Source: Escherichia phage radambza. Taken from it: 64,000 nucleotides of DNA. The notes beneath the pieces were generated by a model. The model ran no database searches and was not told the origin of the DNA. It worked only from the letters and a program-made list of their open reading frames with translations. The position numbers and the translations under genes were made by a program. Shown piece by piece: positions 43,220 to 44,635 of the stretch. Every line of letters begins with the position of its first letter. Positions within the stretch are counted from its first letter, which is position 1. Where the stretch lies: the sequence record MN850639.1. One strand, given 5' to 3'.

Positions 43220-44635
43220 TTACCAGATGTAACGGTCAATCATTACTGCTTTGAGCATTACGCTGATTGGGTCAAACTTCTCACCACCAAGCAGAGCTTT
43301 TAAAGTTGCTGGAGAGAAACCAGATACCATTGCTACACCGTTATCCTTAACAGACACTTCGCAAGTACCATTACGGTTTGCTAAGTACCAGAATACCAGT
43401 TGAGGCATTTCGTACCCAGCTTTTTTGTACTTACTCTGAATTGCTTCAAAGTTTGTACGACCGTTAGCTCCATCAACCTGATTGAACTCCATATCGGAGA
43501 AGATGATAAGCTTACTTGGCATGTCTTTCTGAGTCAAGTTGTTTCTCTTACCTACCTCAAGAATGCGGTCAAAAGCTGCTTGTAAGTTAGTTGAGCCATA
43601 TTCAACATGTCGCATCACCTGACGATGACGGTTTCGTAAATCACCACTCAGTTCGATGAAGTGAGGGTTTGTTGAATAAACCATTAACTCATCCTTGAAG
43701 CAACCTGTATTGCGTTCTGCTACATACAAGGCAAGTGATACACCAATATCAAGGGCAGTGATTGAACCAAGATTCACCCAAGACATTGAGCTTGAAACAT
43801 CAGTCATACACAGGATGTTTTCACCTTCTGCCATCCAGTTTGGTAGTGCTTTCCACTGCTCATTAGCAACATCTGCATTACCATACTTGATAGATTTAAT
43901 CACATCGTATGGGTAAACAGCACCAGCATTAATCTTAGCCTCACCTTTTGAGAGGGACTCGATGTAAGCTTTGTAACGCTCTCCATCTTTACGGTTAAAC
44001 AGTTTTTGGTAACGTGCAGCAGCAAGTGAAGGAATCTTACTGTAGTCAATCTTACCAAACTCATTAGCAGAGATTTTTTGCTCAACTGTATCAGATAGTG
44101 CAGACAACAGTGTGCGGTACTCTTTCTCACTCAAGTTGGCAAACTTGCAGAAACGTTTTACAAACTGCTTATGACGTGGTTTGACTCGTGGTAACCACTT
44201 AGCCGCCAAGCCTGCTGTTGCAGGGTCTAGTAATGCTGCTTCTAAATGTTTGAAGGCATCTGTCTCGAAACGAGTACCTACAAAGATTTTGAAGTCATCA
44301 AAACGACCAAGCTCTGCAATCTTATCCATAATGCGAAGAACCTGTGTAGGTTCTAAAACTTTATCTTCAATTGCTTGAAGTAAAACAGTTCGGAAAGCTT
44401 TACGCTCACCCATACCTTCTCGTACATCTCGCATATGCAGTAAAATACGAACTGCAACATCAACATCCTCACGCAAAGCTTTGTAGAACAGGTCTGGTAA
44501 GATTACTACATTGCTACGGCTCGAACCAGCAGCTTTGTAAAAGTCTACAAGAGCAGACATTGATGAAGTATGGTTTACAGCACCATTTTCAGTTCGACCT
44601 GCATGAAGGTGCGCATGTTTAAATAATTCGCTCAT
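43220..44635 (-). CDS. von Willebrand factor A (MIDAS) domain protein with N-terminal helical domain
   Basis: 471 aa; MIDAS motif DVSSS (DxSxS) near residue 280 then a Rossmann-like C-terminal half; sits directly upstream of the tRNA cluster. Confidence 0.6.
   Translation of the reverse strand: MSELFKHAHLHAGRTENGAVNHTSSMSALVDFYKAAGSSRSNVVILPDLFYKALREDVDVAVRILLHMRDVREGMGERKAFRTVLLQAIEDKVLEPTQVLRIMDKIAELGRFDDFKIFVGTRFETDAFKHLEAALLDPATAGLAAKWLPRVKPRHKQFVKRFCKFANLSEKEYRTLLSALSDTVEQKISANEFGKIDYSKIPSLAAARYQKLFNRKDGERYKAYIESLSKGEAKINAGAVYPYDVIKSIKYGNADVANEQWKALPNWMAEGENILCMTDVSSSMSWVNLGSITALDIGVSLALYVAERNTGCFKDELMVYSTNPHFIELSGDLRNRHRQVMRHVEYGSTNLQAAFDRILEVGKRNNLTQKDMPSKLIIFSDMEFNQVDGANGRTNFEAIQSKYKKAGYEMPQLVFWYLANRNGTCEVSVKDNGVAMVSGFSPATLKALLGGEKFDPISVMLKAVMIDRYIW

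What the first reader, a model, noticed from the sequence alone, without database searches (positions are those of the whole stretch)
43220..44635. vWA/MIDAS protein beside the tRNA cluster: possible Ro60-like RNA-binding system
The 471 aa protein has a helical N-terminal domain and a C-terminal vWA domain with an intact DxSxS MIDAS motif (DVSSS). That layout recalls Ro60/Rsr (TROVE domain plus vWA), which binds Y RNAs carrying tRNA-like modules. Its gene abuts a tRNA cluster that contains tRNA-less structured stretches (40360-40615, 41030-41275, 41509-41700) and a free-standing acceptor/T-arm remnant at 41706-41733. The Ro60 identification is a hypothesis; the N-terminal domain could belong to another family.
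Basis: inference. Interest (0 to 1): 0.6.

Follow-up and report, generated by a model that had tools for sequence, protein, structure and literature searches.

The report
Phage Ro60-like protein with partner RNAs
This Felix O1-type phage gene encodes a divergent relative of the RNA-binding ring protein Ro60, and the spacers of the neighbouring tRNA cluster encode four small stem-loop RNAs that are probably its partners and that closely resemble the unexplained 'Class I' RNAs of social amoebae.

Summary
ORF 43220-44635 (-) encodes 471 aa with a helical N-terminal domain and a vWA domain carrying an invariant MIDAS (DVSSS...T...D). It lies 165 nt upstream of a 24-tRNA cluster.

This part is already known. 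The 98%-identical Bas63 gp130 was called Ro60-like and shown to counter the Ppl defence in a 2024 preprint.

What appears new is the RNA partner. Four units sit in tRNA spacers (42810-42888, 42651-42721, 41799-41878, 41655-41791). Each has a covarying stem, then UUACAGCAA, a loop, then the return strand plus G. Unit D carries a permuted tRNA-like module, as YrlA Y RNAs do.

The same units flank DUF2828 genes on the same strand in the other 11 phages examined, including Bas63. In a blind search of 80 bacterial-genome loci, 33 of 33 hits were on the gene strand within about 1.2 kb.

Their architecture matches Dictyostelium Class I RNAs, and Rfam RF01414 hits fall only on these units, below threshold. 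That link is a hypothesis.

The parts
43220..44635 (-). Gene for a 471-aa Ro60-like ring protein (Pfam DUF2828 + DUF7788/vWA; PHROG 850); orthologue of Bas63 gp130
43844..44635 (-). N-terminal all-helical (HEAT-like, TROVE-like) domain, residues 1-264
43271..43822 (-). C-terminal vWA domain, residues 272-455, with MIDAS DVSSS (43787-43801), T349 (43589-43591) and D381 (43493-43495)
44676..44705 (-). Promoter-like site upstream of the gene (TTGACA-18-TAAAGT)
   Evidence: Consensus scan only; such sites are not enriched over shuffles.
43081..43201 (-). Two promoter-like sites (43201-43173 and 43110-43081) between the gene and tRNA-Pro; probable start of the tRNA/small-RNA transcript
   Evidence: Consensus scan and the sequence. 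Function is inferred.
42810..42888 (-). Unit A: small stem-loop RNA that fills the spacer between tRNA-Glu and tRNA-Met. Layout: UGAC[AGA]AGACCAA-UU-ACAGCAA ... UUGGUCU[G]GUCA
   Evidence: Model R1 scores 47.1 bits, E 1e-9. MFE fold. Coordinates.
42651..42721 (-). Unit B: the same class of RNA in the spacer between tRNA-Met and tRNA-Asn. Layout: UUAC[AGA]AGACCGU-UU-ACAGCAA ... ACGGUCU[G]GUAA
   Evidence: R1 scores 60.2 bits, E 9e-13. Fold. Coordinates.
41799..41878 (-). Unit C: the same class of RNA, downstream of tRNA-Asp. Layout: GAGC[AGA]AGACCAA-AU-ACAGCAA ... UUGGUCU[G]GCUC
   Evidence: R1 scores 45.4 bits, E 4e-9. Coordinates.
41655..41791 (-). Unit D: YrlA-like Y RNA. It has the same closing stem and ACAGCAA motif, enclosing a permuted tRNA-like module: T-arm 41717-41733, closed acceptor-like hairpin 41699-41716, D-arm 41682-41696
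   Evidence: R1 scores 30.6 bits, E 1e-5, with a 70-nt insertion. Aligned with 8 counterparts from 7 other phages; RNAalifold recovers the T-arm, acceptor-like hairpin and D-arm, and 12 of 15 pairs show compensatory changes. Coordinates.
37767..43054 (-). Cluster of 24 tRNA genes (plus a tRNA-Arg-like gene at 40948-41026) in which the four units are embedded
   Evidence: ARAGORN and Rfam.

Best explanation
The ORF encodes a divergent Ro60-type ring protein: a HEAT-like helical toroid closed by a vWA/MIDAS domain, classed by sequence as DUF2828/DUF7788. The spacers of the adjacent tRNA cluster encode its probable RNA partners. These are four small RNAs with a covarying terminal stem, an unpaired (U)UACAGCAA motif directly 3' of the stem's 5' strand, a variable loop, and an invariant G after the 3' strand. 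One of them, unit D, carries a permuted tRNA-like module (T-arm, closed acceptor-like hairpin, D-arm), like bacterial YrlA Y RNAs.

Proposed mechanism:
- Inferred: the units are transcribed with the tRNAs from sigma-70-like promoters downstream of the gene and are released when the flanking tRNAs are processed.
- Inferred from co-occurrence and from the Ro60-Y RNA precedent: the ring binds the stem plus the ACAGCAA motif.
- By analogy only: the tRNA-like module of unit D recruits a tRNA-recognising enzyme or an exoribonuclease such as PNPase, giving an RNA surveillance/repair or nuclease-sequestering particle that serves the phage's tRNA set.
- Shown experimentally for the 98%-identical Bas63 gp130: the protein counters the Ppl defence system. 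It does so in T7, which lacks these RNAs, so that activity either does not need them or can use host RNAs.

For: RNA in the window. There are four exact matches to AGACC-N4-ACAGCAA, all on the minus strand within 1.2 kb. Model R1 finds exactly four significant hits in 7.8 kb; the next best scores 11.5 bits.

Association with the gene. Across the window and 11 phage loci (184 kb, both strands), all 28 R1 hits lie beside the DUF2828 gene on its strand. Campylobacter units were found only by the pattern scan. In 80 bacterial-genome loci (621 kb, both strands), a search blind to gene position gave 33 hits, all on the gene strand and within ~1.2 kb. Units occur in loci with no tRNA nearby.

Structure. 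The stem is 98.5% and 100% paired in the two hit sets, all 7 pairs covary, and slid controls pair at 35-50%.

tRNA-like module. Sub-threshold Rfam YrlA hits lie beside the gene in Klebsiella, Mycobacterium, Sinorhizobium and Bacillus phages, and the module covaries.

Context. A Listeria phage has an RtcB ligase 1.3 kb downstream, echoing the bacterial rsr-yrlBA-rtcBA operon.

Function. Bas63 gp130 counters Ppl.
Against: No binding data exist for any DUF2828 protein with these RNAs; the pairing rests on genomic co-occurrence. The protein misses Pfam TROVE at E <= 0.1, and neither the single sequence nor the family profile finds Ro60 chains in the PDB. Rfam YrlA and Y_RNA do not hit the window even at E <= 10. 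The canonical Ro-binding motif GNCGAA(N)G is not conserved. gp130 alone rescues T7 on Ppl, so at least one activity is independent of the phage RNAs. The seed units were chosen for having a stem, and the hit alignments are fitted to the model, so the covariation counts are somewhat inflated. Only 27 of 80 bacterial-genome loci gave a hit at E <= 0.1. Expression and the ends of the RNAs have not been shown.
Confidence: 0.75

Rival explanations
1. The protein is an anti-defence factor that acts through protein-protein contacts of its vWA/MIDAS domain, for example by blocking the Ppl ATPase-PHP nuclease. The Ro60-like fold is an evolutionary leftover, and the neighbouring RNA units are not its ligands.
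Against: This does not explain why ACAGCAA stem-loops flank the gene on the same strand in phages of Proteobacteria, Firmicutes and Actinobacteria and in bacterial genome loci. It does not explain why one copy is YrlA-like. The invariant residues of the helical domain are mostly Arg, Lys and Trp. The two readings are compatible: an RNP can also have a protein target.
Confidence: 0.12
2. The ACAGCAA stem-loops are cis-acting elements, not trans-acting partner RNAs. They would be processing or insulator signals of tRNA arrays, or leader elements that regulate translation of the DUF2828 mRNA.
For: In most bacterial-genome loci the units lie 40-800 nt upstream of the gene on the same strand. In Vibrio phage phi-pp2 and Sinorhizobium phage phiM7 a short unit lies at or just before the start codon (with gene coordinates). 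In the window the units fill tRNA spacers.
Against: In the window and in Staphylococcus, Mycobacterium and Klebsiella phages the units lie downstream of the gene, in the window beyond promoter-like sites and several tRNAs. Units occur where no tRNA is nearby. Tandem arrays of 2-7 copies with one tRNA-like member mirror the YrlA/YrlB arrangement. Rfam's model of free-standing, abundant Dictyostelium RNAs recognises them.
Confidence: 0.1
3. The repeats are selfish or incidental repeated DNA, such as miniature mobile elements or homing-endonuclease targets in a tRNA cluster known to host HNH genes.
For: An HNH endonuclease ORF lies in the cluster (42017-42436), and cluster content varies among Felixounaviruses.
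Against: Stem sequences differ between copies while pairing is kept, and all 7 pairs show compensatory changes. The strand is always that of the gene (33 of 33). The 7-nt motif is invariant from actinophages to coliphages.
Confidence: 0.02

Closest known systems
Ro60/Rsr with Y RNAs: bacterial Rsr-YrlA/YrlB, Deinococcus Rsr-Yrn1 (RYPER), Thermus phage phiLo phiRo60-Yrl1/2
   Different: There is no detectable sequence relation to TROVE. The protein is shorter, at 471 aa against about 530. The conserved RNA motif is (U)UACAGCAA after the 5' stem strand, not GNCGAA(N)G (Rfam YrlA consensus). Rfam YrlA scores are 35-40 bits in related loci, against a threshold of 69, and nil in the window. Here the RNAs are embedded in a tRNA cluster.
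Bas63 (JohannRWettstein) gp130, PhageMaP preprint PMC11482910
   Same: It is the same protein: 460 of 471 residues identical, in the same position upstream of tRNA-Pro. The preprint already states the structural similarity to Ro60, the position upstream of the tRNAs, and a counter-defence role against Ppl.
   Different: The preprint guessed that some annotated tRNA genes might be Y RNAs. Here the annotated tRNAs score as ordinary tRNAs. The Y-like RNAs are instead in unannotated spacers, two of which carry spurious opposite-strand ORFs in Bas63 (bas63_0137 and bas63_0138).
Dictyostelium Class I RNAs (Rfam RF01414)
   Same: Both have a 6-8 bp terminal stem in which pairing is conserved but sequence is not. 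Both have an unpaired ...UUACAGCAA(UUA) motif directly 3' of the 5' stem strand, an A/U-rich variable loop and a length of ~55-75 nt. Many bacterial and phage copies have a 5' AAG and a 3' CUG(U). The Rfam model hits five phage or bacterial units and nothing else in those loci.
   Different: All hits are below Rfam's threshold (22-27 bits against 41.5), and the window's own units are not hit. The window units have an extra outer 4-bp helix beyond an internal loop. The spacer before ACAGCAA is 1-2 nt rather than 3. Class I RNAs are free-standing eukaryotic genes with a DUSE promoter and were reported as unique to Dictyostelia. No link to a DUF2828 protein has been shown.
Pfam DUF2828 (PF11443) + DUF7788 (PF25043) / PHROG 850
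   Same: The protein is a full member by sequence. The family is large: 709 of 50,697 phage records, more than 2,800 protein clusters, and bacterial genome assemblies. Papers also report it in plants and mimivirus-like sequences.
   Different: The family has no assigned function in Pfam. 'RNA-binding protein' in PHROGs and RefSeq is an annotation, not a tested function.

Membership tests
Ro60/Rsr (TROVE + vWA) protein family | N-terminal HEAT-repeat helical toroid (TROVE fold) | tested here: met
Ro60/Rsr (TROVE + vWA) protein family | C-terminal vWA domain with a MIDAS motif | tested here: met
Ro60/Rsr (TROVE + vWA) protein family | Sequence match to Pfam TROVE, or to Ro60 chains of known structure | tested here: not met
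   No TROVE hit at E <= 0.1. phmmer and a 43-sequence profile find no Ro60 chain in the PDB at E <= 10.
Ro60/Rsr (TROVE + vWA) protein family | Binds Y RNA or misfolded RNA; tethers an exoribonuclease | not testable with these tools
   This needs RIP, EMSA or a structure of the complex.
YrlA-type Y RNA (Rfam RF02553) | Permuted tRNA-like module (T-arm, closed acceptor-like stem, D-arm) enclosed by a long terminal stem and encoded near the Ro gene on the same strand | tested here: met
   Unit D at 41655-41791. In the 9-sequence alignment RNAalifold recovers all three arms, with 12 of 15 pairs compensatory.
YrlA-type Y RNA (Rfam RF02553) | Reaches Rfam's gathering score (69 bits); conserved GNCGAA(N)G in the 5' strand | tested here: not met
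   No YrlA hit in the window at E <= 10. Counterparts in other phages score 35-40 bits. ACAGCAA replaces the CGAA motif. A GGCGAAG at 41730-41736 overlaps the T-stem and is not conserved in the alignment.
Dictyostelium Class I RNA (Rfam RF01414) | Short terminal stem with covariation, plus the 11-nt motif CCUUACAGCAA next to the 5' strand | tested here: met
   The ACAGCAA core is invariant, usually preceded by U or UU. The stem is 98.5-100% paired with all 7 pairs covarying.
Dictyostelium Class I RNA (Rfam RF01414) | Rfam gathering score (41.5 bits); conserved AAG start and CUGU end; DUSE promoter; dictyostelid genome | tested here: not met
   Five units in other loci score 22-27 bits. None of the window's units is hit. 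AAG and CUG(U) ends are common in bacterial copies, but the window has ...CUGG followed by an outer helix. The promoter and the organism do not apply.
Pfam DUF2828/DUF7788; PHROG 850 | Profile match above the curated cut-off | tested here: met
   DUF7788 scores 148.9 bits (cut-off 27.1) and DUF2828 scores 100.8 bits (cut-off 29). PHROG 850 scores 612 bits across the full profile.

The most novel reading that the evidence does not exclude
The ACAGCAA stem-loop RNAs beside DUF2828 genes would be the same RNA class as the Class I RNAs of dictyostelid social amoebae. Those are abundant ~60-nt RNAs of unknown function, published as unique to Dictyostelia. On this reading, DUF2828 proteins and ACAGCAA RNAs form a second, ancient Ro60/Y-RNA-like ribonucleoprotein lineage spanning phages, bacteria and eukaryotes. 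It predicts that Class I RNAs bind a DUF2828-type Ro-like protein in Dictyostelium. [quoted passage not shown] In phages the particle would serve tRNA arrays and counter-defence.
Probability: 0.4. Interest if true: 0.9.

Novelty: new variant of a known kind. Interest (0 to 1): 0.75.

Why it matters
DUF2828 is a large family of unknown function. It occurs in 709 of about 50,700 phage records here, in many bacterial genome assemblies, and, according to papers, in plants and mimivirus-like sequences.

Assigning it a specific, recognisable RNA partner turns 'Ro60-like by fold' into a testable ribonucleoprotein system. The RNA has a simple signature that can be searched for, mutated and used as bait.

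It links three things phage biologists currently treat separately: phage tRNA clusters, Ro/Y-RNA-type RNA surveillance, and counter-defence (the Ppl phenotype of Bas63 gp130).

It corrects annotation. The Y-like RNAs lie in unannotated tRNA spacers, some of which carry spurious ORFs.

If the resemblance to Dictyostelium Class I RNAs reflects a shared protein partner, it would give a concrete biochemical hypothesis for an RNA class discovered in 2004 whose function is still unknown. It would also contradict the view that the class arose with dictyostelid multicellularity.

Tried and rejected
- Sequence-only routes to Ro60 failed. Pfam gave no TROVE hit, NCBIfam gave nothing, and phmmer and a profile hmmsearch against PDB chains gave nothing.
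- Rfam found no Y_RNA or YrlA in the window, at E <= 1 over 10 kb or at E <= 10 over 441 nt. The RNA class became visible only through homologous loci.
- Weak tmRNA and permuted-tmRNA matches at 41028-41332 (17-32 bits) were not pursued. They are below threshold and no ACAGCAA unit lies there.
- The GGCGAAG at 41730-41736, which fits the canonical Ro-binding motif, was rejected as significant. It overlaps the T-stem and is not conserved.
- My loose Python scan (a 6-bp stem within 190 nt of ACAGCA) gave many background hits across the window. It is used only to list candidates, not as evidence.
- Whether Dictyostelium DDB_G0281243 is a DUF2828 protein could not be checked. The afdb50 fold library was not available, Avesson 2011 is not held, the gene id appears in one paper without a description, and the supplements hold nothing.
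- Burroughs and Aravind 2016 could not be read.
- The supplements of Chen 2014, which list the phages with YrlA, are not held.
- MZ501111 was a wrong guess for Bas63. The correct accession is MZ501086.
- No negative control was run on canonical TROVE-type phage loci. The Rfam YrlA consensus stands in for it.

Full report
**Origin of the window.** It is a Felixounavirus (Felix O1-like myovirus). The 2.2 kb around the finding is 97-98% identical to Felixounavirus LF82P3, Escherichia phages allfine and Alf5, and about 250 other records. On the minus strand the gene order is: DUF5681 protein, the finding, a tRNA cluster, terminase large subunit, portal.

**Observation.**
- The ORF at 43220-44635 (-) is real, 471 aa, with an ATG start.
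- DVSSS is at residues 279-283. Together with T349 and D381 it forms a complete MIDAS that is invariant in 43 homologues reaching down to 42% identity.
- ARAGORN finds 24 tRNA genes at 37767-43054, all on the minus strand. The first lies 165 nt after the stop codon.
- The flagged tRNA-less stretches are more stable than all dinucleotide shuffles, with z from -3.0 to -5.5.
- The flagged T-arm is at 41717-41733.

**The protein.**
- By sequence it is Pfam DUF2828 (N-terminal) plus DUF7788 (vWA), and PHROG 850 'RNA-binding protein'. It does not hit TROVE.
- Neither the single sequence nor a family profile finds any chain in the PDB.
- An AlphaFold2 model built on a 43-sequence alignment is confident (pLDDT 88.5, pTM 0.88).
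- The ten best Foldseek matches in the PDB are all Ro60 family members aligned over the full length: phage phiLo Ro60, Xenopus and human Ro60, and Deinococcus Rsr.
- The helical domain is therefore TROVE-like in fold. The protein is a remote, sequence-undetectable relative of Ro60.
- The family is large: more than 2,800 clusters and 709 phage records from hosts in many phyla. Mycobacteriophage members (31-34% identical, full length) are annotated 'Ro-like RNA binding protein'.

**Prior knowledge.**
[quoted passage not shown] Its deletion sensitises the phage to the Ppl defence system. gp130 expressed alone rescues T7 on a Ppl strain.
- Bas63 is MZ501086. Its gene bas63_0130 has 471 codons, is 460/471 identical to the window protein, and sits in the same place.
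- Phage Ro60 homologues with adjacent Y-like RNAs are also known from mycobacteriophages and from Thermus phage phiLo, where the complex binds host PNPase.

**The RNA partner in other phages.** Rfam finds no Y RNA in the window. I therefore looked beside homologues elsewhere.
- Sub-threshold but significant YrlA (RF02553) matches lie on the gene strand next to the DUF2828 gene in four phages: Klebsiella FBKp34 (39.6 bits), Mycobacterium Krypton555 (38.3), Sinorhizobium phiM7 (35.2) and Bacillus PBC2 (37.8).
- Reading these sequences showed a shared design: a 5' stem strand, then 0-2 nt, then ACAGCAA, then a loop or a tRNA-like module, then the complementary strand.

**The RNA partner in the window.**
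- The pattern AGACC-N4-ACAGCAA has four exact matches, all on the minus strand between 41769 and 42881.
- The four units are A 42810-42888, B 42651-42721, C 41799-41878 and D 41655-41791.
- Units A and B each lie in a tRNA spacer, between tRNA-Glu and tRNA-Met and between tRNA-Met and tRNA-Asn. Units C and D lie between tRNA-Asp and tRNA-Lys.
- Each has a 7-8 bp inner helix (AGACCNN/NNGGUCU), an AGA/G internal loop and a 4-bp outer helix. The outer helix differs between copies in a compensatory way: UGAC/GUCA, UUAC/GUAA, GAGC/GCUC.

**Tests of the RNA class.**
- A covariance model (R1) was built from 13 units of 7 phages.
- In 184 kb of phage sequence, both strands, it finds 28 hits. All lie beside the DUF2828 gene on its strand, with no hit elsewhere in the 64-kb window.
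- With filters off, the 7.8 kb around the finding gives exactly four significant hits (60, 47, 45 and 31 bits). The next best scores 11.5 bits.
- As a test blind to gene position, I fetched 80 loci encoding homologues from bacterial genome assemblies and searched 621 kb on both strands. That gave 33 hits at E <= 0.1 in 27 loci. All 33 are on the gene strand and within about 1.2 kb of the gene, mostly 40-800 nt upstream.
- In both hit sets the stem is 98.5-100% paired and all seven pairs show compensatory changes. Slid controls pair at 35-50%. These alignments are fitted to the model, so the counts lean towards the structure.
- Units occur in loci with no tRNA within 4 kb. In other loci the gene is embedded in arrays of 23-26 tRNAs. 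The units therefore go with the gene, and the pair is often recruited to tRNA arrays.
- Every further phage examined has such units next to the gene: Listeria (3), Campylobacter (2), Staphylococcus (3), Bacillus (7), Cronobacter, and Bas63.

**Unit D.**
- It contains a T-arm, a closed acceptor-like hairpin and a D-arm in that order. This is the circularly permuted tRNA arrangement that defines YrlA.
- Nine such units from eight phages align. RNAalifold, given no structure, recovers all three arms, with 12 of 15 pairs supported by double changes.

**Difference from canonical Y RNAs.** The Rfam YrlA consensus has ...CGAAUGC... in its 5' strand and no ACAGCAA. Here ACAGCAA is invariant from actinophages to coliphages, and the CGAA motif is not conserved. 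A divergent protein family thus goes with a divergent RNA recognition motif. This is why I class the system as a new variant of a known kind rather than a new member. I found no paper in the searchable library that describes this motif or this RNA class.

**An unexpected resemblance to Dictyostelium Class I RNAs.**
- In a short scan of the Klebsiella phage spacer, Rfam's second and third hits were RF01414, 'Class I RNA from Dictyostelium' (25.2 and 23.6 bits). They fall exactly on two simple units.
- The same family hits one unit each in the Listeria phage (23.1), the Staphylococcus phage (22.1) and a Chloroflexi locus (26.7), and nowhere else in those loci.
- All these hits are below the gathering score of 41.5. 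The window's own units, with their extra outer helix, are not hit.
- The published description of Class I RNAs reads like a description of these units: about 60 nt; a 6-bp terminal stem conserved in pairing but not in sequence; the unpaired 11-nt motif CCUUACAGCAA next to the 5' strand; an AAG start; and a CUGU end whose C pairs with the 5' G.
- Many bacterial copies read AAGG....UUACAGCAA....CCUGU.
- Class I RNAs are reported as unique to Dictyostelia and of unknown function. A pull-down with DdR-21 recovered Rnp1A/CIBP, GuaB, NdkC and DDB_G0281243, a protein of unknown function.
- No paper in the library connects Class I RNAs with Ro60 or Y RNAs.
- According to papers, DUF2828 proteins exist in plants and in mimivirus-like sequences.
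- The authors' own out-group table lists an Arabidopsis candidate with a high score (40) and the full signature.
- I could not determine whether Dictyostelium has a DUF2828 protein. I therefore present this as the most novel reading not excluded by the evidence, not as a finding.

**Mechanism.**
- Shown: the fold, on a predicted model; the MIDAS; the existence, conservation and covariation of the RNA units; and their same-strand association with the gene.
- Shown by others for the orthologue: counter-defence against Ppl, transferable to T7 without the RNAs.
- Inferred: co-transcription with the tRNAs from the promoter-like sites at 43201-43081 and release by tRNA processing.
- Inferred: binding of the stem plus ACAGCAA by the ring.
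- By analogy with YrlA, Yrn1 and phiLo: recruitment of a tRNA-recognising enzyme or an exoribonuclease through the tRNA-like module.
- An RtcB ligase lies 1.3 kb downstream of the Listeria phage homologue, and the gene frequently sits in tRNA arrays. Both point to tRNA surveillance or repair, or protection against tRNA-directed defences. That remains a hypothesis.

**Verdict.** The protein part is already known. The RNA partner class appears undescribed and is well supported by comparative evidence, though it has not been tested biochemically.

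Noticed in passing
window 41509-41654 (-): A 146-nt stretch between unit D and tRNA-Lys folds into a 22-bp closing helix with internal branches (z -5.5). One branch, CUACAGACC-UUAAGCAA-GUCUGGGUAG, looks like a miniature of the unit stem with AGCAA in the loop. Model R1 does not hit it.
   Followed up: partly
window 40360-40615 and 41027-41230 (-): Two more structured tRNA-less stretches (z -3.0 and -4.4) remain unassigned. The best promoter-like site of the region (TTGACA-17-TATAGT, 41259-41231) precedes the second. 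Weak tmRNA-like Rfam matches at 41028-41332 are below threshold.
   Followed up: partly
window 40948-41026 (-): Rfam finds a tRNA (31.7 bits) that ARAGORN misses. It has a TCT anticodon loop, an encoded CCA and an aberrant D region with a long extra arm. The counterpart in Bas63 is annotated tRNA-Arg(AGA). A still weaker tRNA-like match lies at 40725-40799.
   Followed up: partly
window 42017-42538 (-): An HNH homing-endonuclease ORF lies inside the tRNA cluster. As listed it overlaps tRNA-Tyr. The PHROG match starts at residue 35, so the real start is probably near 42436. Alf5 has an HNH gene at a different place in the cluster.
   Followed up: no
window 44718-45089 (-): The upstream gene is a 123-aa DUF5681 protein with an N-terminal KGQSGNPSGRPKG motif. 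In Staphylococcus phage S-CoN_Ph16 the gene just upstream of the Ro-like gene is annotated as the small terminase subunit, with the large terminase downstream of the RNAs, as in the window. This may be a recurring TerS / Ro-like / RNAs / TerL arrangement.
   Followed up: no
L009 (Listeria phage LMTA-34) 2428-2979 and 6808-8019: A near-threshold ROOL RNA (88.5 bits against 99.1) lies between the tRNA genes and the Ro-like gene. An RtcB 'tRNA splicing ligase', a phosphohydrolase and a tRNA amidotransferase lie just downstream.
   Followed up: no
L006 (Vibrio phage phi-pp2) 4463-4509; L008 (Sinorhizobium phage phiM7) 4394-4433: Short ACAGCAA units (40-47 nt, weak R1 hits) lie over or just before the start codon of the DUF2828 gene. 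They could be sites where the protein controls its own translation.
   Followed up: no
L042, L044, L058 (Chloroflexi genome loci): The DUF2828 gene is embedded in same-strand arrays of 23-26 tRNA genes. L044 comes from a 522-kb contig. ACAGCAA units lie between the array and the gene.
   Followed up: partly
L012 (Bacillus phage PBC2) 2267-2394: One ACAGCAA unit encloses a complete, normally scoring tRNA-Ile inside its terminal stem. This looks like an intermediate between a tRNA and a YrlA-like module. The record annotates the tRNAs on the strand opposite to the one Rfam finds.
   Followed up: no
L013 (Bas63) 20749-21023; L001 (Alf5) 6951-7274: Small 'hypothetical protein' ORFs annotated on the opposite strand (bas63_0137, bas63_0138, Alf5_ORF044c) lie over units C and D and the adjacent structured RNA. 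They are probably spurious.
   Followed up: partly
Supplementary file 7 of bioRxiv 10.1101/2020.04.05.026054: The Class I RNA authors' out-group search lists an Arabidopsis candidate (ath_can_1, CM score 40) with the full signature GUUUUC-AUU-ACAGCAA...GAAAAC-UG. They dismissed it as isolated. Papers report DUF2828 proteins in plants (poplar).
   Followed up: no
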